A stretch of 30,307 nucleotides of DNA from Hyphomicrobiaceae bacterium (GCA_044867545.1 JBIOVC010000214.1:1-30307), one strand, 5' to 3'; counted from the first letter of the stretch, positions 4,222 to 11,444 are shown. Translations and numbers: made by a program. The notes: generated by a model not told the origin, from the sequence alone.

Positions 4222-5511
4222 TCAAGCGCCGCACTTGCCAGTTTTCGTGTTGAAGTTCCCGCATTTCTTGCCGACCCAGTCGGCAATCAGGTCCTTCGAG
4301 CCTTCCAGGTACGGCGACCATGCCGCGCCGGGTACCAGGCCCTTGGTCTGCCAGACCACATCGAACTGGCCGTCGGCGCGGATCTCACCGATGAACACCG
4401 GCTTGGTGATGTGGTGGTTGGAGAGCATCTTGGACGTGCCGCCGGTCAGGTTCGGCACCTCGATGCCGGGCAGCGCATCGATCACCGCGTCGGGGCTGGT
4501 GGTCTTCGCCTTCTCGACCGCCTTGACCCACATATTGAAGCCGATCACGTGGGCTTCCATCGGGTCGTTGGTGACGCGCTTCGGGTCCTTGGTGAAGGAC
4601 TTCCACTTGGCGATGAACTCGTCGTTCGACTTGTTCTTGATCGACTGGAAGTAGTTCCAGGCGGCAAGGTGTCCGACGAGGTTCTTGGTGTCGACGCCGG
4701 CGAGTTCCTCCTCGCCGACCGAGAACGCGACGACGGGAATGTCGGTCGCCTTCACGCCCTGGTTGGCAAGCTCCTTGTAGAACGGCACGTTGGCGTCGCC
4801 GTTGATCGTCGAGACCACGGCGGTCTTCTTGCCCGTCGCGCCGAACTTCTTGATGTCGGCGACGATCGTCTGCCAGTCGGAGTGCCCGAACGGCGTGTAG
4901 TTGATCATGATGTCTTCCGCCTTCACGCCCTTGGCCAGGAGATAGGCCTCGAGGATCTTGTTGGTCGTGCGCGGATAGACGTAGTCGGTTCCTGCGAGCA
5001 CCCAGCGCTTGATGGCGCCGCCTTCCTTGCTCATCAGGTAGTCGACGGCGGGGATCGCCTGCTGGTTGGGAGCAGCACCCGTGTAGAAGACGTTGCGCTC
5101 GCTCTCCTCACCCTCGTACTGCACCGGGTAGAAGAGGACCGAGTTCAGCTCCTTGAAAACCGGGAGCACTGACTTGCGCGACACCGACGTCCAGCAGCCG
5201 AATACGGCCGCAACCTTCTGCTGGCTGATCAGCTCCCGCGCCTTCTCGGCAAACAGCGGCCAGTTCGATGCCGGATCGACGACCACGGCCTCGAGCTTCT
5301 TGCCGAGCAGACCGCCCTTCTTGTTCTGCTCCTCGATCAGCATCAGCATGACGTCTTTGAGCGTCGTCTCGCTGATCGCCATGGTGCCCGAAAGCGAGTG
5401 CAGGATGCCGACCTTGATCGTCTCCTGCGCTACCGCCCCACTGCTCAGCGCCAGACCGGCGCCGAGGGCGAGCGCAGCCACGCTTCGCCTTACCCCACCC
5501 TTCAACAGCAT
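4222..5511 (-). CDS. urtA: Urea ABC transporter substrate-binding protein UrtA
   Basis: Signal peptide then IKVGILHSLSGTMAISE, VVVDPASNWPLFAEKARELI, FGCWTSVSRKSVLPVF, FYPVQYEGEE; SD GGAG before ATG 5511. Confidence 0.95.
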   Translation of the reverse strand: MLLKGGVRRSVAALALGAGLALSSGAVAQETIKVGILHSLSGTMAISETTLKDVMLMLIEEQNKKGGLLGKKLEAVVVDPASNWPLFAEKARELISQQKVAAVFGCWTSVSRKSVLPVFKELNSVLFYPVQYEGEESERNVFYTGAAPNQQAIPAVDYLMSKEGGAIKRWVLAGTDYVYPRTTNKILEAYLLAKGVKAEDIMINYTPFGHSDWQTIVADIKKFGATGKKTAVVSTINGDANVPFYKELANQGVKATDIPVVAFSVGEEELAGVDTKNLVGHLAAWNYFQSIKNKSNDEFIAKWKSFTKDPKRVTNDPMEAHVIGFNMWVKAVEKAKTTSPDAVIDALPGIEVPNLTGGTSKMLSNHHITKPVFIGEIRADGQFDVVWQTKGLVPGAAWSPYLEGSKDLIADWVGKKCGNFNTKTGKCGA

Positions 5512-5550
5512 TTTTGGTCTCCAAAAGGTTTGTTTACGAAGGCTAAGAAG

Positions 5551-5567
5551 GGCAAGCTCTGTGCCAG
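5551..5567 (-). promoter_or_regulatory. sigma54 (-24/-12) promoter of urtA
   Basis: Minus strand CTGGCACAGAGCTTGCC matches TGGCAC-N5-TTGC with exact spacing, ~40 nt upstream of the urtA ATG. Confidence 0.8.
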
Positions 5568-5676
5568 CGCCGGAAAGAGTCGCGCTGCAACGCAATAAGC
5601 AATTGTAATTAAGAGAAAAAAAGAGATTGTAGAGTTTGGGCATCCGTCTCCGGCGAGTTCCTGGAAGGAGAACAAC

Positions 5677-5744
5677 TGCCGAGATTTCGTGCAGGGATTT
5701 GGACAAGGAGCGGGCAATTTTTGTCGCCGCCCAATCTTTTGGCA
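5677..5744. promoter_or_regulatory. Two NtrC-like enhancer sites
   Basis: TGCCGAGATTTCGTGCA (5677-5693, TGC-N11-GCA) and CGCCCAATCTTTTGGCA (5728-5744, GC-N11-GC), 110-180 bp upstream of the sigma54 promoter with an AT-rich tract between. Confidence 0.6.
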
Positions 5745-5813
5745 GCGTTGGGACATGCCAACGATCTCGCGAGGGGGCGCGAGCCGGCCCGACTTGGCGG
5801 CGAGAACGATTGG

Positions 5814-6599
5814 CTACAGCCCGGCGAACCAGTTGTAGCCGTAGTTCTCCCAGTAGCCGGCCGGATACTCGTTGGTGACCCGTATCTCGGTGACGAACTT
5901 CGGCTGCTTGAAGCCGAGCTTGGTCGGGATCTTCACCCGCATCGGAGCGCCGTACGGCGGCTCGATCGGCTTGTCCGCATACGTGAGGCACAGGATGGTC
6001 TGCGGATGCAGCGCGGACGCCATGTCGATGCTGGTCGAGTAGCTGATCGGGTCGTCGCAATGGAAGGAAACGTAGCGCGCGTTCAGGTCGGCGCCCACGC
6101 GCTCGAGGAACGTGCGCAGCGTCGGGCCGCCCCACTTGCCGATCATGCTCCAGCCCTCGACACACACATGCCGCGTGACGTCGGCGCGCTGCGGCAGCGC
6201 CTGGAGCTGCTCCAGCGTCCAGGTGCGCTTGTCGGCGACGAGGCCCGAGGGCTGCAGGCGCCAGGTGACGGGGTTGAGCACCGGCACCCGGTCGTAGCCG
6301 AACTGCGCATTGAAGCGGAATTGCGCCGGCACCAGGCTCGCGGAGTAGGTCGGCGCCAGGCGGTGCGGATTGAAGAGAGCGCCTTGCACGCCGTCGTTGA
6401 AACGCGAGATGGCGCGCAGGAAGCGGTCGACGGGTCCGGTGTTGGTGACGACGTCGCAGCCCGACAGCAGCGTCAGCGCACCGAGACTGAGGCCGCTGCG
6501 CAGGAATAGCCGACGCTCCAGGTTTGCGATGTCGCCCTTTCCGAGCCCGGCATCGCGCAGCCGTCGCTCGATGCTCGTGCTGTCGAAGCGCCTGGTCAT
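5814..6599 (-). CDS. Tat-exported molybdopterin-dependent oxidoreductase (sulfite oxidase/MsrP superfamily)
   Basis: ERRLFLR twin-arginine motif, lipobox-like LSGC, Mo-ligand motif HVCVEGWS, YGAPMRVKIPTKLGFKQPK, GYWENYGYNW; ATG 6599 overlaps the upstream stop. Confidence 0.85.
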   Translation of the reverse strand: MTRRFDSTSIERRLRDAGLGKGDIANLERRLFLRSGLSLGALTLLSGCDVVTNTGPVDRFLRAISRFNDGVQGALFNPHRLAPTYSASLVPAQFRFNAQFGYDRVPVLNPVTWRLQPSGLVADKRTWTLEQLQALPQRADVTRHVCVEGWSMIGKWGGPTLRTFLERVGADLNARYVSFHCDDPISYSTSIDMASALHPQTILCLTYADKPIEPPYGAPMRVKIPTKLGFKQPKFVTEIRVTNEYPAGYWENYGYNWFAGL

Positions 6600-7273
6600 G
6601 ACGCGTCTCCCGTCGAATGATTGGTTTCGGCCTGGCGCGGTGCCCTGCCGGTGATCATCGGCGGCAGCACCTTGGGCACCAGCAGGGTCAGCGCCACGTG
6701 CACAATGATGAACCCGACGACCCCGGCCATACCGAAGAAGTGCACGTAGCGGGCGCCTTCGTACTGGCCCATGATCAGCCCGAGCGTGTGGAATTGCACC
6801 GGCTTCCACAGCACCACGCCCGACAGCAGCATCACCAGCATCGCGACCAGCGCGAACGCGTAGAGCAGCTTCTGCACGGCGTTGCGGACGCCGAGCTCGT
6901 GCGAGAGGCGGCCCTTGAGGAAGTCGGTAACGTTGCCGGCAACCTCGCCCACTGTGACGGGCAGGTAGCGCATGCGGAAGTGACCGGACACAAAGCCCCA
7001 TACCAGGAACACCGGCAGGCTGATGAACAGCAGCCACATGGCGGCGAAATGCCAAAGCAAGGCGCCGGCAAGACCGAAGTCGTTGTGCAGCTTGTTGGCA
7101 TCCTCGTAGCTGCCGCCGAGCGTCATCCATACGGGGAAGGAGAAGCCGAACAGCGGGTCCGACTCGTAGATGCGCAGCCCGCTGCCGATCAGCAGCAGCA
7201 CACCCAGCGCCCAGGTCCAGTGCGTGACGCGCACCACGAATGGATGCAGCACCTTGTGAGGATCGTTCTGCAC
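6596..7273 (-). CDS. Cytochrome b/b6-domain membrane protein (redox partner)
   Basis: HPFVVRVTHW, LLWHFAAMW, YNAVQK-like RNAVQKLLY, ARYVHF, IIVHV: four heme-ligand His positions on TM helices. GTG start at 7273 inferred. Confidence 0.85.
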   Translation of the reverse strand: MQNDPHKVLHPFVVRVTHWTWALGVLLLIGSGLRIYESDPLFGFSFPVWMTLGGSYEDANKLHNDFGLAGALLWHFAAMWLLFISLPVFLVWGFVSGHFRMRYLPVTVGEVAGNVTDFLKGRLSHELGVRNAVQKLLYAFALVAMLVMLLSGVVLWKPVQFHTLGLIMGQYEGARYVHFFGMAGVVGFIIVHVALTLLVPKVLPPMITGRAPRQAETNHSTGDAS

Positions 7274-7287
7274 CGCAATGCACGCCT

Positions 7288-8040
7288 CTAGCGAATTGCG
7301 CGCTCGACGATCGCACCGCGGCGTGGAGCGCGGCGGAGCGCCAAAGTCAGCCGTAGAAATGTCGTGGCGATTTTCCACGCCGCTGCGAGTCCGGCGAGGA
7401 AGTTGCCGGAGACCTTGGAGATGCCGCCGCGCCGGCAGCGGTGATCGACAGGAACCTCGCGGACGCGCAGGCCGGCAGCCGCGACGCGCATCTGCATCTC
7501 CAGGTTCCACCCGTAAGTGGTCTCGCGCATGCCGAGCCGGCGCAGCCGGTCGATCCTGATGGCGCGGAACGGCGACATATCGGTGAAGCGCACGCTGTAC
7601 ACGAGGCGCATCAGAACGCCGGCAAGATGACCGGCCACCACCTGCTGCGGTGTCATGCTGCCCGCCTCGCGCCGTCCGATGAGGCGCGAGCCCATCACGA
7701 AGTCCGCTTCCCCGCGCGCCACGGGCCCGACGACCTCGGCGAGGAAACTCGGCACGTCGCTGCCGTCACCGTCGAGAAAGCAGACGATCTCGGTGTCGGA
7801 ACGCACCGCGGCGACGCCGGCGGCGCAGGCGCGGCCGTAACCGCGCACGGGCTCGGATACGACCCGCGCTCCGGCCTCGCTGGCACGTGCCGCGGTCGCA
7901 TCCCCCGAGCCGTTGTCGACGACGACGACCTCGTCGACACCCTGCTCCAGCACCTCGTGCACAACGGATGCAATCGCTGCTTCCTCGTCGAGGCACGGGA
8001 TCACGACGGACACGATCGCGTTGACGCCCGGGAGCTGCAT
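7288..8040 (-). CDS. Glycosyltransferase family 2 (DPM1-like)
   Basis: VVIPCLDEE, VVVVDNGSGD, RGYGRAC, FLDGDGSD (DxD), FVMGSR, FTDMSPFRAI, YGWNLEMQMR. Confidence 0.9.
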   Translation of the reverse strand: MQLPGVNAIVSVVIPCLDEEAAIASVVHEVLEQGVDEVVVVDNGSGDATAARASEAGARVVSEPVRGYGRACAAGVAAVRSDTEIVCFLDGDGSDVPSFLAEVVGPVARGEADFVMGSRLIGRREAGSMTPQQVVAGHLAGVLMRLVYSVRFTDMSPFRAIRIDRLRRLGMRETTYGWNLEMQMRVAAAGLRVREVPVDHRCRRGGISKVSGNFLAGLAAAWKIATTFLRLTLALRRAPRRGAIVERAIR

Positions 8041-8043
8041 GGG

Positions 8044-9123
8044 TCAAAGGCTCCAGCGCAAGCCGCAGTTGGCGCAGGCCTGCGGCGGCTGGTCCGACAG
8101 CAGCGCCTCGCGAAAGGCCCTGTAACGCGGCCCGTTCCAGATCTCGCGCAGGTCATCCTGAGTGGCATCGCCCAGCGTGTAATTCTCGTAGCCGTGCTGG
8201 GAGAACGGCGCGATGCAGCACGGAAGCGCGCGGCCGTTGGCGGTGAAATACATGACCGTCCAGGGCCGGCGACACATGGACCATGGGTTGTCATCGCGTT
8301 TGCGAGAGAGACTCAAGCCGGGCTCTGACGCTGCACCCGAGGCGCTGAATGTGAGGCCAAGCGACTTCGCCAGCGCCGCCGCCGCGTCGAGATGGCGGGC
8401 TTCCTCGGCGGTCGTGCGTTCAAACAGCGCCTGATCCGGGCGCGCCAGCCCGATCGCGTCGCGGTCGAAGAACACCAGACGCTGCAGGTAGACCTCCTTG
8501 ACGCCGATCTCGGCGGCAAGGCGCACGAAGCCAGGCAGCTCCTCGACCGTCTCCTTGAGACCGGTCAGCCAGGCCGACACGCGCGGGCGGGCGTGCCCCT
8601 CGCGCTCCTGCAGGTCGCGGAACGCCCTGACGTTCTTCAGGATGCGGCGGAAGTAGTCCTTGCCGCGCACCTTGATGAAGGATTCCGGCGTCGACGCATC
8701 GAGCGATACGCGCAGCTCGTCGAGGTCGGCGGCAATGAGCGCGCGTCCGTTCTTCTCGTTGAGCACCGTGCCGTTGGTGTTGAACAGCACGTAGACGCCG
8801 CGGTCCTTGAGGTAGCGCACCATCTTGGGCAGCGCCTTCACCAGCATCGGCTCGCCGACGCCGTGCAGAACGGCGCGCGCGACGCCCGGCACCTGATCGA
8901 CGATACGCGTGAACAGCGCCCACGGCATGTCGGCCGGCGGCTCGAGCTCTGCGTAGGTGCGCGGGCAGGTGGTGCACAGCAGATTGCAGCGGTTGGTCAC
9001 CTCCAGGTAAAGGCAGACTGGCGGCTTCTCGGCCATGCCGTCCTTGGCGGCCGCGCCGGCTTCGAAATAGCGCTCTACGTCCACGGGCTCGCGGGCTCGG
9101 GTGTCGCCCCTCAGCTCATCCAT
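8044..9123 (-). CDS. Radical SAM protein with C-terminal SPASM/twitch domain
   Basis: CNLLCTTC (CxxxCxxC), LHGVGEPML, FNTNG, VSLDA; C-terminal CRRPW...GRALPCC...LREIWNG...CANC. Confidence 0.92.
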   Translation of the reverse strand: MDELRGDTRAREPVDVERYFEAGAAAKDGMAEKPPVCLYLEVTNRCNLLCTTCPRTYAELEPPADMPWALFTRIVDQVPGVARAVLHGVGEPMLVKALPKMVRYLKDRGVYVLFNTNGTVLNEKNGRALIAADLDELRVSLDASTPESFIKVRGKDYFRRILKNVRAFRDLQEREGHARPRVSAWLTGLKETVEELPGFVRLAAEIGVKEVYLQRLVFFDRDAIGLARPDQALFERTTAEEARHLDAAAALAKSLGLTFSASGAASEPGLSLSRKRDDNPWSMCRRPWTVMYFTANGRALPCCIAPFSQHGYENYTLGDATQDDLREIWNGPRYRAFREALLSDQPPQACANCGLRWSL

Positions 9124-9232
9124 TGCGAGGCTCCTGCAATTGGCGTGAGGAGTAAGTGGAGATTAGCCGCATTGGCTCGGGCCTGCACGCGGTCGTGCCA
9201 GAGGTGGCGGCTGGCATGGTAGCGGCCATGCG

Positions 9233-10018
9233 CTACCATGAGAGTTCCGTTTGCTGCCGCGCGTGCCGCTGCTCCAGAAACAGGCGCGTTGCCGGTGCCG
9301 GCGCGCCCGTGAGCCCCGGCTCGGCGAAAGCCGCTCGCTCGCCGGCCAGCTCTGCCTCGAGCATTCTCAACGTCTCGCCGTCATCGATATCGTACCAGCC
9401 GGGCACCGCGACGACAGGCACGCCGACCTCGGCGGCGCGCTCGACGGTCAGGCGGTGCACCTGCGACGTGCTCCAAGGAATGTCGGCGAAGAGGCGGGCA
9501 TGTGCCCGTGACAAACCGATGAGCGTGTAGCCGCCATCAAAAGCGGGACTCAGGACGACGACGTCCTCGCCCTCACGCAGAGCACCGACGGCGGCGCGCA
9601 GGATAGTGGGCGGCAGCGTCGGGCTGTCGCCATTGACAAGTACAACGCCGGCATGGCCAGCGCCGAGAAGCTCGGCCGTGGCGCGGTACAGCCGATCCCC
9701 AAGATTTCCCTCCCCCTGGGGCAGCAGGCGGAAGCCCGAGGGCAGCAGGGGGCGAAGGGTGCTCTCGGTTCCACGCGGGGTATAGACTGCGTAGGGCGCC
9801 ACGCCGCCCTCCAGCGACACACCGTGGATGGTGGCCGCCAGATCACGGATGAAGCACGCGGCCAGGCGAGCGCAGTCCTCCAGGCTGAGCGGCGGTGAGA
9901 GCCGGGTCTTGGCGAAGCCCGCCGACGGCGTCTTGCAGACAATGCCTACGGCCACGGTCGGCACGGTTTCGGTCCCGTTGCCGGCGCGCCCGCCAGCCCT
10001 TTTCGCTATGGCGATCAT
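9233..10018 (-). CDS. DUF2064 / TIGR04282-type CofC-like GT-A-fold transferase
   Basis: IVCKTPSAGFAKTRL, LPQGEGNLGDRL, LVNGDSPTLP, VVLSPAFDGGYTLIGL, DIPWSTSQV, WYDIDD. Confidence 0.85.
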   Translation of the reverse strand: MIAIAKRAGGRAGNGTETVPTVAVGIVCKTPSAGFAKTRLSPPLSLEDCARLAACFIRDLAATIHGVSLEGGVAPYAVYTPRGTESTLRPLLPSGFRLLPQGEGNLGDRLYRATAELLGAGHAGVVLVNGDSPTLPPTILRAAVGALREGEDVVVLSPAFDGGYTLIGLSRAHARLFADIPWSTSQVHRLTVERAAEVGVPVVAVPGWYDIDDGETLRMLEAELAGERAAFAEPGLTGAPAPATRLFLEQRHARQQTELSW

Positions 10019-10102
10019 TGCGCTCGTGTCATCACCCTCATGAACGACATGACGGCCTGTGGGGTTTCAGGCCCTCGACATCCAACGCACTCACCGGAAG
10101 AG

Positions 10103-10128
10103 TTCGGCGTGGCGGGAGGGCCTGTTAC
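10103..10128 (-). promoter_or_regulatory. SigF/EcfF-type ECF promoter driving the DUF2064-rSAM-GT2-cytb-Mo operon
   Basis: Minus strand GTAACA-N16-CGAA (N16 = GGCCCTCCCGCCACGC); matches the GTAACC-N16-CGAA consensus I recall for Caulobacter sigmaF. Confidence 0.75.
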
Positions 10129-10192
10129 AGTGATAACGGCATCGTGTTTGCTGATCCGGGAGGCCACACTGCGACCATCAGCAGGCGATTGA

Positions 10193-10218
10193 GTAACGAC
10201 GGGGACTTTACCAGCGTA
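10193..10218 (+). promoter_or_regulatory. SigF/EcfF-type promoter upstream of the sigma gene (autoregulation)
   Basis: GTAACG-N16-CGTA (N16 = ACGGGGACTTTACCAG), ending 2 nt before GTG 10221. Confidence 0.65.
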
Positions 10219-10220
10219 TC

Positions 10221-10778
10221 GTGGACAGGTTTGTAGTGCGGGATCGTCACGTCCAATGGGCCGAGCAGATGCGGGCGGCCAATCGAGGCGACGGCGAGGC
10301 CTACAGACGCGTTCTGGAGGGCCTGACGCCGCTGCTACGGGCTTGGGTCAGGCGCGGGCTGGCCGGGTACGGCTCGGCGCAGGAGGAGGTGGAGGACGTC
10401 GTGCAGGAGGCTCTGTTGGCGCTGCATCTGAAGCGCCACACGTGGGACGAAGCGCGACCACTGCTGCCATGGGTGCGGGCAATCACACACAACAAGCTGG
10501 TCGATGCCATGCGCCGCCGTGGCCGGCATGTGCATGTGCCGATCGACGAGGTAAGCGACGCGCTGGCCGTCAATGAGGAGCCGGGGGCCCTCCATGGTCT
10601 CGAAAGCGAGCGGGCGCTTGCCCTGCTACAGGGCCGTGCGCGCGACATCGTGACGGCCATCTCGGTCGAAGGCGCAAGTGCACGCGAGGTGGCCGAGCGC
10701 CTCGGCATGACGGAAGTGGCGGTGCGCGTTGCCCTGCATCGGGCGTTGAAGTCGCTGGCTGACGCCTTGCGGGATTGA
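10221..10778 (+). CDS. sigF: ECF sigma factor, SigF/EcfF type
   Basis: EDVVQEALLALHLKRHTWD, LLPWVRAITHNKLVDAMRR, C-terminal HTH SAREVAERLGMTEVAVRVALHRALKSL; adjacent to NrsF. True start may be GTG 10236. Confidence 0.88.
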   Translation: MDRFVVRDRHVQWAEQMRAANRGDGEAYRRVLEGLTPLLRAWVRRGLAGYGSAQEEVEDVVQEALLALHLKRHTWDEARPLLPWVRAITHNKLVDAMRRRGRHVHVPIDEVSDALAVNEEPGALHGLESERALALLQGRARDIVTAISVEGASAREVAERLGMTEVAVRVALHRALKSLADALRD

Positions 10779-10805
10779 AGGAGAGCGTGAAGCTTCGACA
10801 AGACC

Positions 10806-11444
10806 ATGAGGACGGACGATCTCATCAAGGTGATCGCCGGCGATGTCGCGGCGCCCCGGCCAGCGCTCGGCATCCGCATCGCCGTAGCGCTGGCCGCCGG
10901 CGGGACTATCGCTGCCGTATGGTTCGCGATGGGGCTCGGCATACGGCCGGACATCCTCACCGCGCTGCAGAGCTGGCGTTTTCTGCTGAAGCTCGCAGTC
11001 GTGCTTGTGGCGTTCGGCTGCGCGCTGTGGGCCTCGATACGGCTGGCGGACCCAGAGACGACACTGCGCGAGGTCGCGCCCGCGCTTTCGGCCGCTCCCC
11101 TGCTTCTCGCGGCGGGCTCCCTGCTCGAGCTGGCGATGGTGCCGCCGGCGGAGTGGGGCGCACGCGCCGCCGGGCGCTACTGGCTCACGTGCCTGGTCTC
11201 GATACCGGTGTTGTCGATCGCTCCGCTCGTTGCCTTGCTGATCGCCCTGCGGGCCGGAGCGCCGGGATCGCCGTCGGCAGCAGGGGCGGTGGCCGGAGGA
11301 CTGGCGGCGGCACTCGCAGCGGTCCTGTACGCAACCCACTGCCCCGACGACTCACCTTTGTTCGTGGCGGTGTGGTACGTGCTTGCCATGATGCCCACTC
11401 CGATCGCAGGGTGGCTCGTCGGCAGGAGCGCATTGCGCTGGTAG
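10806..11444 (+). CDS. nrsF: NrsF/DUF1109-family membrane anti-sigma factor
   Basis: MRTDDLI N-terminus, about six TM segments, two Cys in WLTCLVSI and YATHCPDDSPLFVAVWY. Confidence 0.88.
   Translation: MRTDDLIKVIAGDVAAPRPALGIRIAVALAAGGTIAAVWFAMGLGIRPDILTALQSWRFLLKLAVVLVAFGCALWASIRLADPETTLREVAPALSAAPLLLAAGSLLELAMVPPAEWGARAAGRYWLTCLVSIPVLSIAPLVALLIALRAGAPGSPSAAGAVAGGLAAALAAVLYATHCPDDSPLFVAVWYVLAMMPTPIAGWLVGRSALRW

What the first reader, a model, noticed from the sequence alone, without database searches (positions are those of the whole stretch)
5814..11444. Self-contained SigF/NrsF stress module controlling an uncharacterised five-gene redox and glyco-biosynthesis operon
Seen: DUF2064, rSAM/SPASM, GT2, cytochrome b and a Tat Mo-oxidoreductase are co-oriented with short gaps or overlaps and lie divergent from sigF-nrsF. 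Known: SigF/EcfF with Cys-containing NrsF/OsrA responds to oxidative or heavy-metal stress in Caulobacter and Bradyrhizobium. Inferred: the operon joins periplasmic reductive repair with synthesis of an unknown protective glycoconjugate. I know of no characterised product for this gene combination.
Basis: partly seen in the sequence, partly recalled or inferred. Interest (0 to 1): 0.75.

Follow-up and report, generated by a model that had tools for sequence, protein, structure and literature searches.

The report
SigF/NrsF switch driving sugar-cassette/Mo-reductase operon
A known type of envelope-stress switch (SigF sigma factor with its NrsF membrane sensor) sits back to back with five genes carrying its promoter signature: three from a widespread radical-SAM sugar-tailoring cassette of unknown product and two for a periplasmic molybdenum reductase, which gives that orphan cassette its first regulatory context.

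Summary

The only GTAAC-N14-18-CGAA match in the 30 kb window lies in the 200-bp divergent gap and points at the operon. A twin with CGTA as its -10 element points at sigF. The same operon promoter recurs upstream of the DUF2064 gene in 6 of 30 GT-C-bearing relatives, against about 0.2% background. Five of those six have no sigF within about 9 kb (one is a short contig).

The seven-gene layout is lineage-specific: window, L006 and probably L007. Its parts are separate modules:
- **Sugar cassette.** DUF2064-rSAM/SPASM-GT2 occurs in at least 572 species genomes and as fused proteins. It usually travels with a GT-C membrane transferase, which this window lacks.
- **Reductase pair.** The cyt b561 plus YedY-like Mo enzyme is autonomous. 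Its closest orthologues occur in complete genomes that lack the cassette.
- **Switch.** This is an ordinary ECF16 module, one of three in this MAG.

The product is still unknown. It is not the ArsS arsenosugar set, not a peptide (RiPP) system and not a maturase for the Mo enzyme. The scan has noted this cassette before in at least 19 other genomes. The SigF link and the recurrent Mo-reductase linkage are what is new here.

The parts
10236..10778 (+). sigF, an ECF16-type sigma factor (180 aa from GTG 10236; the ORF opens at GTG 10221)
   Evidence: Sigma70_r2 and r4_2 domains. NF009165 scores 230 bits against a cut-off of 198, and the profile starts at residue 6 of the long ORF. L006 has the same geometry, with 17-18 nt between the -10 element and the GTG.
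10806..11444 (+). nrsF, a six-TM DUF1109 anti-sigma factor
   Evidence: PF06532 171.9 bits. Cys129 is invariant, and Cys179 lies in the HCPDDSP motif that 6 of 7 homologues keep.
10193..10218 (+). SigF-type promoter of sigF-nrsF: GTAACG-N16-CGTA
   Evidence: The same GTAACG-N16-CGTA stands before sigF in L006. The consensus GTAACC-N16-CGAA is from PMC3511200.
10103..10128 (-). SigF-type promoter of the five-gene operon: GTAACA-N16-CGAA, 84 nt upstream of ATG 10018
   Evidence: It is the only GTAAC-N14-18-CGAA match in the window (0.31 expected for the whole window). There are only 14 matches to GTAAC-N17-CG[AT]A in the 3.8-Mb MAG. The motif recurs at the same place in L005, L006, L009, L015, L016 and L084.
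9233..10018 (-). DUF2064 / TIGR04282 protein with a CofC/FbiD-like nucleotidyltransferase fold
   Evidence: PDB 3CGX at E 3e-14. Model pLDDT 91.8; the nearest Swiss-Prot folds are PEP, 2-phospholactate and 3-phosphoglycerate guanylyltransferases.
9213..9240 (-). Perfect 10-bp hairpin spanning the DUF2064 stop codon, with no U-tract, inside the 109-nt gap (9124-9232) where relatives carry a GT-C gene
   Evidence: The 56-nt stretch folds at -22.4 kcal/mol, z = -2.7. No remnant of GT87 was found in the gap.
8044..9123 (-). Radical SAM / SPASM enzyme (359 aa, CNLLCTTC cluster motif, AGGAG Shine-Dalgarno site before ATG 9123)
   Evidence: It is 74-83% identical across the 80 related genome loci kept. 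Model pLDDT 83; the top PDB folds are DesII and BlsE. No NCBIfam equivalog cut-off is reached.
7288..8040 (-). GT2 glycosyltransferase, DPM1/AglJ-like and GpgS-like, with a DGDGSD motif
   Evidence: PF00535 79 bits. AglJ 122 bits against 325; TIGR04283 46 bits against 182. The best PDB sequence matches are GpgS.
6596..7273 (-). Membrane cytochrome b561 (PF01292), presumed quinol-side electron donor
   Evidence: PF01292 73.6 bits. It always lies immediately upstream of the Mo gene in the 20 unrelated loci examined.
5814..6605 (-). Tat-exported, probably lipid-anchored YedY/MsrP-like molybdopterin oxidoreductase
   Evidence: PF00174 102.6 bits. MsrP model 81.8 bits against 207. Best PDB match is E. 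coli YedY 1XDQ, with the CVEGWS molybdenum-cysteine motif kept. Tat motif and lipobox seen.

Best explanation
This is an ECF16 envelope-stress switch with a private target operon.

**Regulation (inferred from homologues).** NrsF, with its two conserved cysteines, holds SigF at the membrane. In characterised homologues the release signals are oxidants or metals: HOCl, singlet oxygen, chromate, cadmium. Freed SigF then fires two divergent promoters only 116 bp apart. One drives sigF-nrsF (autoregulation). The other drives DUF2064-rSAM/SPASM-GT2-cyt b561-Mo oxidoreductase.

**Module 1: the three biosynthetic genes.** These enzymes work on one substrate, because they occur fused in other bacteria. 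They most likely activate a sugar or nucleoside-derived precursor (the CofC-like nucleotidyltransferase), tailor it radically (the DesII/BlsE-like rSAM) and hand it to a phosphorylated carrier or acceptor (the DPM1/GpgS-like GT2). In most relatives a co-translated GT-C enzyme would then deliver the product to the envelope. That last enzyme is missing here.

**Module 2: the reductase pair.** This is a self-sufficient periplasmic reductase fed from the quinol pool. It parallels MsrPQ, the classical repair arm of SigF regulons, but uses a different kind of cytochrome b.

**Shown:** gene content, promoter motifs and their conservation, modularity, and fusions. **Inferred:** the inducing signal, co-transcription, the chemistry and the product.
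For: - **Promoters.** One GTAAC-N14-18-CGAA match exists in 30 kb, in the right gap and orientation. Its twin stands before sigF and is conserved with the same spacing in L006. The consensus is taken from PMC3511200 and PMC8315932.
- **Promoter conservation.** A perfect motif lies upstream of DUF2064 in 6 of 30 GT-C-type relatives, against 0.24% of random 270-bp windows. Those six sit on several branches of the rSAM tree. Two of their genomes carry nrsF elsewhere.
- **Genome-wide count.** The MAG has 14 motif matches, and 6 of them lie on the three sigF contigs.
- **Sensor.** Both NrsF cysteines are kept.
- **Cassette conservation.** The triad is present in nearly all of 83 related loci. GT2::rSAM and DUF2064::rSAM fusions exist.
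- **Delivery enzyme.** A GT-C gene sits inside the cassette in 33 loci. In 32 loci without it, a different 630-660-aa membrane protein is linked in four different arrangements.
- **Fold evidence.** rSAM; DUF2064.
- **Reductase.** The Mo enzyme resembles YedY and keeps the Mo-binding cysteine. cyt b plus Mo lie near the triad in 50 of 84 loci, in five arrangements.
Against: - No transcript data exist for this DNA.
- The 109-nt gap with a strong hairpin after DUF2064 could attenuate read-through.
- Most relatives (24 of 30 with the GT-C, and nearly all without it) lack the strict SigF motif. Those without the GT-C carry a different conserved ECF-like motif.
- sigF-nrsF is adjacent in only 3 of 83 relatives.
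- The MAG has three SigF/NrsF pairs, so which sigma reads the promoter is not settled.
- Neither type of membrane transferase was found in this 75%-complete MAG, so the pathway may be truncated here.
- The GT2 reaches no equivalog cut-off, and its best PDB matches are soluble GpgS enzymes. A lipid carrier is therefore not established.
Confidence: 0.6

Rival explanations
1. Sacrificial redox sugar. The cassette makes an oxidisable envelope sugar, for example a 5-thio-substituted 5-deoxypentose like the methylthioxylose of mycobacterial LAM. The sugar soaks up HOCl or ROS, and the co-encoded Mo reductase re-reduces its sulfoxide. This would be a glycan counterpart of the MrpX/MsrPQ peptide system.
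For: - SigF regulons elsewhere pair a Met-rich sink with a Mo sulfoxide reductase (PMC8315932, PMC4436054). This operon has no Met-rich peptide.
- The GT2 plus GT-C logic matches MtxS/MtxT (PMC8780516, PMC12088412).
- A PNP_UDP_1 nucleoside phosphorylase-like gene flanks the cassette in 6 loci.
- A Cys/Met-metabolism PLP enzyme sits under a perfect SigF motif in the sister locus L007.
- cyt b plus Mo lie near the triad in 50 of 84 loci.
Against: - The closest Mo-enzyme orthologues occur in five genomes at least 99% complete that lack the rSAM, and none of 20 Mo loci examined had the triad nearby. The reductase therefore has another primary substrate.
- 13 of 20 well-flanked GT-C-type cassettes have no Mo gene nearby.
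- No direct evidence of sulfur chemistry.
- Swiss-Prot fold neighbours of DUF2064 did not include a protein of the Mtb MTX locus.
Confidence: 0.1
2. Cofactor or maturation role. The rSAM, DUF2064 and GT2 proteins modify the pterin cofactor or otherwise mature the neighbouring Mo enzyme.
For: - The best partial NCBIfam hits of the rSAM are the tungsten-cofactor oxidoreductase maturase (137 bits) and a putative metalloenzyme maturase.
- The best Swiss-Prot fold is the P. furiosus AOR cofactor-modifying protein, TM 0.69.
- DUF2064 has a MobA/CofC-type fold.
- 91% of cassettes without the GT-C have the Mo pair nearby.
Against: - Orthologous Mo/cyt b pairs (48-58% identity) exist in five genomes at least 99% complete that have no rSAM orthologue.
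- Both maturase models are far below their cut-offs (137 against 380, 129 against 400).
- GT-C and extra GT2 genes inside the cassettes fit glycan chemistry, not cofactor chemistry.
- Sulfite-oxidase-family enzymes use plain Mo-MPT (established knowledge).
Confidence: 0.05
3. Organoarsenical (arsenosugar-type) pathway, as the NCBIfam name of TIGR04282 suggests.
For: DUF2064 passes the TIGR04282 cut-off. Distant cassettes add a SAM methyltransferase and a second rSAM. An earlier scan note describes a SigF-linked arsenosugar-type cluster.
Against: - The rSAM is a SPASM enzyme, not ArsS.
- TIGR04283 is not reached (46 bits against 182).
- The second rSAMs score 31-33 bits against 300 for ArsS, and the methyltransferases about 50-55 bits against 263 for ArsM.
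- No ars genes lie in the operon.
Confidence: 0.05
4. The two motifs are chance matches, and the five genes are not SigF-dependent. Adjacency would then reflect only local gene order.
For: Short motif. 27 of 100 shuffles of the whole window give at least one match somewhere. Most relatives lack it.
Against: - Both motifs fall in the one 200-bp gap, each facing its gene, with identical spacing.
- The pair is conserved in L006.
- The enrichment is 6 of 30 against 0.24% background.
- There are only 14 matches in 3.8 Mb.
Confidence: 0.1
5. The rSAM/SPASM enzyme matures a ribosomal peptide (RiPP).
For: SPASM enzymes are often peptide maturases. SkfB, PqqE and SuiB are among the fold neighbours.
Against: - No RRE domain: the CxxxCxxC motif starts at residue 46, and the model has only one short helix before the barrel.
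- No small ORF lies in the 109-nt gap.
- The enzyme is fused to GT2 or DUF2064, not to peptide-binding domains.
- Its top folds are the nucleotide-sugar enzymes DesII and BlsE.
Confidence: 0.03

Closest known systems
Caulobacter crescentus SigF-NrsF regulon (ECF16; PMC3511200)
   Same: ECF sigma with a DUF1109 anti-sigma that carries two cysteines. GTAACC-N16-CGAA type promoters. Autoregulation. A small regulon that includes an Oxidored_molyb enzyme (CC2748).
   Different: The Caulobacter targets are bufferin operons, a DoxX protein and a YedY-type enzyme. No DUF2064/rSAM/GT2 cassette is reported there. The sigF promoter here has CGTA as its -10 element.
Brucella melitensis BcrS-AbcS with bcrXQP, and Azospira suillum SigF/NrsF with yedY1Z1-mrpX (PMC8315932, PMC4436054)
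   Same: A divergent sigma/anti-sigma pair beside an operon ending in a membrane cytochrome plus a periplasmic Mo reductase. The cysteines sit at the same positions (129 and 179).
   Different: Those operons encode a Met-rich sink peptide and an MsrQ-type (YedZ) haem protein. This one has no such peptide, uses a PF01292 cytochrome b561, has a Mo enzyme below the MsrP cut-off, and carries three biosynthetic genes in first position.
E. coli MsrPQ (YedYZ; structure 1XDQ)
   Same: Tat-exported sulfite-oxidase-fold Mo-MPT enzyme with the conserved Mo-binding cysteine, paired with a membrane b-type cytochrome.
   Different: 81.8 bits against a cut-off of 207 on the MsrP model. The partner belongs to a different family. 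A probable lipoprotein anchor is present. The substrate is unknown.
TIGR04282 / TIGR04283 / ArsS (TIGR04167) 'rSAM-associated transferase' set
   Same: A CofC-like DUF2064 transferase, a GT2 and a radical SAM enzyme encoded together. The DUF2064 protein passes TIGR04282.
   Different: The rSAM is a SPASM enzyme unrelated to ArsS. The GT2 fails TIGR04283. There is no ArsM.
Lipid-linked sugar delivery pairs: M. tuberculosis MtxS/MtxT (methylthioxylose on LAM; PMC8780516, PMC12088412) and ArnC/ArnT (the latter from my own knowledge)
   Same: In relatives, a DPM1-like GT2 is co-translated with a GT-C (GT87/MptA_B family) membrane transferase. This is the design that loads a tailored sugar on polyprenyl phosphate and transfers it outside the membrane.
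   Different: The rSAM and DUF2064 steps are extra. Orthology to MtxS/MtxT was not testable here. The GT-C is absent from this window.

Membership tests
ECF16 SigF/NrsF sigma/anti-sigma module | Group-4 sigma factor with only sigma-2 and sigma-4 domains | tested here: met
   PF04542 and PF08281 only. NF009165 scores 230.4 bits against a cut-off of 198.
ECF16 SigF/NrsF sigma/anti-sigma module | Co-transcribed DUF1109/NrsF anti-sigma factor | tested here: met
   PF06532 171.9 bits over the full length, 27 nt downstream of sigF. The stricter NCBIfam equivalog NF042994 is not reached (83.5 bits against 300).
ECF16 SigF/NrsF sigma/anti-sigma module | Two conserved cysteines (C129 and C179 in Brucella numbering) | tested here: met
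   C129 is invariant in 7 of 7 homologues. C179 lies in the HCPDDSP motif in 6 of 7. Positions are as given in PMC8315932.
ECF16 SigF/NrsF sigma/anti-sigma module | GTAACC-N16-CGAA promoters on targets and on sigF itself | tested here: met
   GTAACA-N16-CGAA for the operon and GTAACG-N16-CGTA for sigF. Both are conserved in L006.
ECF16 SigF/NrsF sigma/anti-sigma module | Stress-induced, SigF-dependent transcription | not testable with these tools
   No RNA run holds this DNA.
MsrPQ (YedYZ) periplasmic methionine sulfoxide reductase | Catalytic subunit reaches the MsrP equivalog model | tested here: not met
   NF003767 scores 81.8 bits against a cut-off of 207.
MsrPQ (YedYZ) periplasmic methionine sulfoxide reductase | Molybdenum-binding cysteine and Tat export | tested here: met
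   CVEGWS aligns with the YedY motif CVEAWS. RRLFLRSG Tat motif.
MsrPQ (YedYZ) periplasmic methionine sulfoxide reductase | MsrQ/YedZ-type haem partner | tested here: not met
   The partner is a PF01292 cytochrome b561.
TIGR04282/TIGR04283/ArsS arsenosugar-type set | TIGR04282 transferase | tested here: met
   150.3 bits against a cut-off of 134.
TIGR04282/TIGR04283/ArsS arsenosugar-type set | TIGR04283 GT2 | tested here: not met
   46.3 bits against a cut-off of 182.
TIGR04282/TIGR04283/ArsS arsenosugar-type set | ArsS (TIGR04167) radical SAM enzyme | tested here: not met
   The window rSAM carries a SPASM domain, and TIGR04167 is not among its best 25 families. The second rSAMs in distant cassettes score 31-33 bits against 300.
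Polyprenyl-phosphate sugar synthase + GT-C delivery pathway (MtxS/MtxT, ArnC/ArnT type) | DPM1-like GT2 that makes a lipid-linked sugar | tested here: inconclusive
   Best hits are AglJ (122 bits against 325) and Dol-P-hexose transferase, all below cut-off. The best PDB sequence matches are soluble GpgS enzymes.
Polyprenyl-phosphate sugar synthase + GT-C delivery pathway (MtxS/MtxT, ArnC/ArnT type) | GT-C membrane transferase encoded with it | tested here: not met
   Absent from the window, and not found in the 75%-complete MAG with the L006 GT87 protein or the 661-aa protein of the GT-C-less loci. Present in 33 related loci, including the two nearest relatives.
SPASM peptide (RiPP) maturases | N-terminal peptide-recognition (RRE) domain and a precursor peptide gene | tested here: not met
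   The cluster motif starts at residue 46, with one short helix before the barrel. No small ORF lies in the gap.

The most novel reading that the evidence does not exclude
The cassette builds an oxidisable envelope sugar of the 5-substituted 5-deoxypentose type, like methylthioxylose. The sugar would act as a non-protein sacrificial sink for HOCl or ROS. In lineages where the cassette sits beside the cyt b561/Mo pair, that reductase would regenerate the sugar. This would be a glycan version of the MrpX/MsrPQ system under the same SigF/NrsF switch.
Probability: 0.1. Interest if true: 0.85.

Novelty: new variant of a known kind. Interest (0 to 1): 0.55.

Why it matters
The DUF2064-rSAM/SPASM-GT2(-GT-C) cassette is highly conserved: the rSAM is 74-83% identical across the related genome loci kept. 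It is abundant in soil bacteria, with at least 572 species genomes in one scan, including cultured Bradyrhizobium and Methylobacterium. It has no known product and no literature.

A conserved SigF-type promoter, plus a recurrent neighbourhood of periplasmic reductase, DoxX-like, nucleoside-phosphorylase-like and ModA-like genes, places it in the envelope oxidative/metal-stress response. That tells experimenters which condition should switch it on.

It also adds a biosynthetic arm to ECF16 regulons, which so far are described as repair enzymes, sink peptides and bufferins.

Tried and rejected
- **Arsenosugar reading.** I checked the window rSAM and GT2, and the extra rSAM and methyltransferase genes of distant cassettes, against ArsS, ArsM and TIGR04283. 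All are far below cut-off.
- **Maturase for the Mo enzyme.** I sampled 151 genomes of the order. Twenty cyt b/Mo loci examined had no triad or nrsF within about 9 kb. Five genomes at least 99% complete that hold the closest Mo orthologues have no rSAM orthologue.
- **Met-rich sink peptide.** None in the operon or just downstream. The 84-aa ORF at 5502-5756 is not Met-rich.
- **Remnant of the lost GT-C gene.** None recognisable in the 109-nt gap. No GT87 homologue or 661-aa membrane protein homologue was found in the MAG; completeness is 75%, so absence is not proven.
- **Expression data.** 20 listed runs from 13 studies hold the DNA at least in part (8 runs from 3 studies hold half of it or more), but none is an RNA run that holds it.
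- **Link of DUF2064 to the M. tuberculosis MTX locus.** The Swiss-Prot fold neighbours were all CofC/FbiD enzymes. The primary MTX biosynthesis paper is not held.
- **Literature.** 'DUF2064' gave no paper, and 'TIGR04282' gave nothing relevant. The Bradyrhizobium EcfF paper text mentions no radical SAM, glycosyl, molybdopterin or cytochrome b gene.
- **Second DUF2064 gene.** The copy on contig C482 has an uninformative neighbourhood.

Full report
**1. What is there**

Domain searches confirm the seven genes. On the minus strand, in order of transcription:

| Gene | Coordinates | Key scores |
|---|---|---|
| DUF2064 | 9233-10018 | passes NCBIfam TIGR04282, 150 bits against 134 |
| radical SAM / SPASM | 8044-9123 | no equivalog model reached |
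| GT2 | 7288-8040 | AglJ/DPM1-like, below cut-offs |
| cytochrome b561 (PF01292) | 6596-7273 | PF01292 73.6 bits |
| Oxidored_molyb protein | 5814-6605 | PF00174 102.6 bits |

On the plus strand lie an ECF sigma (NF009165, 230 bits against 198) and NrsF at 10806-11444 (PF06532, 172 bits).

I corrected three start codons.
- Cyt b starts at GTG 7273, which gives 225 aa, like the 227-231 aa of relatives.
- The Mo enzyme starts at ATG 6605. This gives 263 aa with an RRLFLRSG Tat motif and an LSGC lipobox.
- sigF starts at GTG 10236. The NCBIfam profile begins there, and L006 has the same distance from promoter to GTG.

Gene spacing is 109, 3 and 14 nt, then a 10-nt overlap. No sigma-70-like promoter lies inside, and terminator-like sites are not above chance. 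The 109-nt gap holds a perfect 10-bp hairpin across the DUF2064 stop codon, with no U-tract.

**2. The regulatory link**

The experimentally derived SigF site is GTAACC-N16-CGAA in Caulobacter (PMC3511200). In Brucella, the BcrS sites upstream of bcrX and bcrS read TGTAACC-N15/16-GCGAA (PMC8315932).

In the window, GTAAC-N14-18-CGAA occurs once, at 10128-10103 on the minus strand, 84 nt upstream of the DUF2064 ATG. The expectation for the whole 30 kb is 0.31. With CG[AT]A as the -10 element there is one more match, at 10193-10218 on the plus strand, in front of sigF.

In the closest full relative, L006, both are kept. GTAACG-N16-CGAA faces DUF2064. GTAACG-N16-CGTA faces sigF, again 17-18 nt before the GTG.

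Across related loci, a perfect motif lies just upstream of DUF2064 in L005, L006, L009, L015, L016 and L084. That is 6 of 30 loci of the GT-C-bearing type, against 0.24% of random 270-bp windows. Five of the six have no sigF within about 9 kb; one of them, L009, is a short contig. The genomes of L015 and L016 carry nrsF on other contigs. On the rSAM tree the six fall on several branches of one 31-row half.

In the whole 3.8-Mb MAG there are only 14 matches, and 6 of them are on the three contigs that carry a sigF. NrsF keeps the invariant Cys129, and Cys179 in the HCPDDSP motif.

So SigF control of this operon is well supported by sequence, and the cassette itself is a SigF target in several lineages. 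It is not universal: most relatives lack the strict motif.

**3. Conservation and modularity**

The best 80, plus three metagenome loci, were analysed.

DUF2064-rSAM-GT2 is present in almost all of them. Two architectures exist.
- **With the GT-C: 33 loci.** These have a GT-C (GT87/MptA_B family) gene translationally coupled between DUF2064 and the rSAM. They include Bradyrhizobium, Methylobacterium and the window's nearest relatives.
- **Without the GT-C: 51 loci.** The window is of this kind.

On the tree the window is sister to L007, and next to L006, with support 100/91. Both of those carry the GT-C. The window therefore lost it recently. No remnant remains, and no homologue was found in the 75%-complete MAG.

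Loci without the GT-C are instead linked to a 630-660-aa membrane protein with no Pfam match. It occurs in 32 loci and four arrangements, and only in loci of this type. Its nearest named Atlas clusters are DUF2298 and DUF6541 membrane proteins. This is a lead for a substitute transferase. It too is not found in this MAG.

Rosetta-stone fusions GT2::rSAM and DUF2064::rSAM exist in other phyla. Their cassettes add a GT-C, a large GT2, a methyltransferase and a second rSAM.

sigF-nrsF is adjacent only in the window, L006, L007 (contig end) and L012.

**4. The Mo/cyt b pair**

The Mo protein is YedY-like. Its best PDB match is 1XDQ, and the CVEGWS Mo-cysteine motif is kept. It scores 82 bits against 207 on the MsrP model, and its partner is a PF01292 cytochrome rather than MsrQ.

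The pair lies within 9 kb of the triad in 50 of 84 loci, in five arrangements:
- immediately downstream and co-oriented;
- downstream after a ModA-like gene;
- divergent upstream;
- convergent;
- upstream and co-oriented.

Most of the divergent cases form one clade.

The reverse test is negative. In a sample of 151 genomes of the order, 28 besides this MAG carry a homologue. I examined 20 loci: 7 with 48-58% identity and 13 with 30-37%. All keep the cyt b-to-Mo pairing, and none has the triad or nrsF nearby. Five genomes at least 99% complete that hold the closest orthologues have no rSAM orthologue.

The reductase is therefore autonomous. It does not need the cassette, and this removes the cofactor-maturase idea. 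That idea had been raised by the rSAM's partial hits to tungsten-cofactor maturase models and by its best Swiss-Prot fold neighbour.

**5. What the cassette may do**

- The rSAM model (pLDDT 83) has no RRE domain. It is closest to DesII and BlsE, which act on nucleotide-linked sugars. Peptide maturases, BtrN and anSME follow.
- The DUF2064 model (pLDDT 92) matches CofC/FbiD guanylyltransferases and PDB 3CGX.
- The GT2 resembles Dol-P-hexose synthases by NCBIfam and GpgS by PDB sequence.
- Recurrent neighbours are a DoxX-like membrane protein (14 loci), a PNP_UDP_1 phosphorylase-like protein (6 loci) and a ModA-like protein (4 loci). In sister locus L007, a Cys/Met-metabolism PLP enzyme lies directly under a perfect SigF motif.

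Together with the GT-C in relatives, the most economical reading is this: activation and radical tailoring of a sugar or nucleoside-derived unit, then transfer to a phosphorylated carrier, then delivery to the envelope. That is the design of MtxS/MtxT (PMC8780516, PMC12088412), with two extra steps. The product remains unknown.

Earlier notes of this scan reached a similar reading for the same cassette in at least 19 other genomes. I confirmed their four-gene core, the fusions and the failure of the ArsS comparison. I add the SigF and Mo-reductase context.

**6. The other SigF modules of this MAG**

- Contig C8 carries sigF-nrsF with its own GTAACC-N16-CGAA motif. Further motifs stand before small secreted proteins, including Met-rich ones, next to a CopA-like ATPase.
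- Contig C25 carries a third, more divergent pair that lacks the second cysteine.

Cross-talk among the three cannot be excluded.

**7. Verdict**

- The switch and the reductase are known kinds.
- The coupling of an ECF16 switch to this orphan rSAM sugar cassette is a new variant and a useful experimental handle.
- Nothing here shows expression, co-transcription or chemistry.

Noticed in passing
L011 about 7973; likewise in 31 of 37 loci of the GT-C-less type with a divergent cyt b gene, 100-250 bp upstream of DUF2064: A highly conserved ECF-like motif, GATAACTTTTnGGTGTnTnnCGAnTTGTA, lies just before DUF2064 and after a PRC-barrel gene. Its AAC-to-CGA spacing is 3 nt shorter than in SigF sites. 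Which sigma factor or regulator reads it is unknown.
   Followed up: partly
L058:7533 (-) and 7567 (+): Two perfect back-to-back GTAAC-N17-CGAA motifs lie between the divergent cyt b-Mo pair and the DUF2064 operon in an early-branching locus without the GT-C. In that genome both modules look SigF-driven.
   Followed up: partly
L007:703-2077: In the window's sister locus, a cystathionine-gamma-synthase / methionine-gamma-lyase family PLP enzyme (435 aa) sits between sigF and DUF2064, under a perfect SigF motif. This hints at sulfur amino-acid chemistry.
   Followed up: partly
L017:5996-7981 and 31 other loci without the GT-C: A 630-660-aa multi-pass membrane protein with no Pfam match follows the GT-C-less cassettes through four different arrangements. 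It is a candidate for an unrecognised GT-C-like transferase (Atlas neighbours are DUF2298 and DUF6541).
   Followed up: partly
G000 contig C8 (L096:248-2889, and about 8063): A second SigF/NrsF pair has its own promoter. SigF motifs stand before small secreted proteins, two of them Met-rich, next to a DsbD-like protein and a CopA-like P-type ATPase. It looks like a copper/oxidant-type SigF regulon.
   Followed up: partly
G000 contig C25 (L097:6029-7356): A third, divergent SigF/NrsF pair. Its NrsF lacks the second conserved cysteine. One SigF motif faces a 126-aa secreted protein.
   Followed up: no
G000 contig C482 (L100:2200-2838): A second DUF2064 paralogue (TIGR04282 124 bits, just under the cut-off) lies next to an AidB-like metallo-beta-lactamase-fold lactonase homologue. 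The contig is too short to give context.
   Followed up: partly
L039, L060, L063, L070 (about +1.85 kb from the rSAM start): A ModA-type molybdate-binding protein gene is inserted between the GT2 and cyt b genes in one clade.
   Followed up: partly
window 4222 to about 5420 (-): The next gene downstream of the operon is a Peripla_BP_5/6 solute-binding protein. About 390 bp of lower-GC spacer separates it from the Mo gene, so the operon probably ends at 5814.
   Followed up: no
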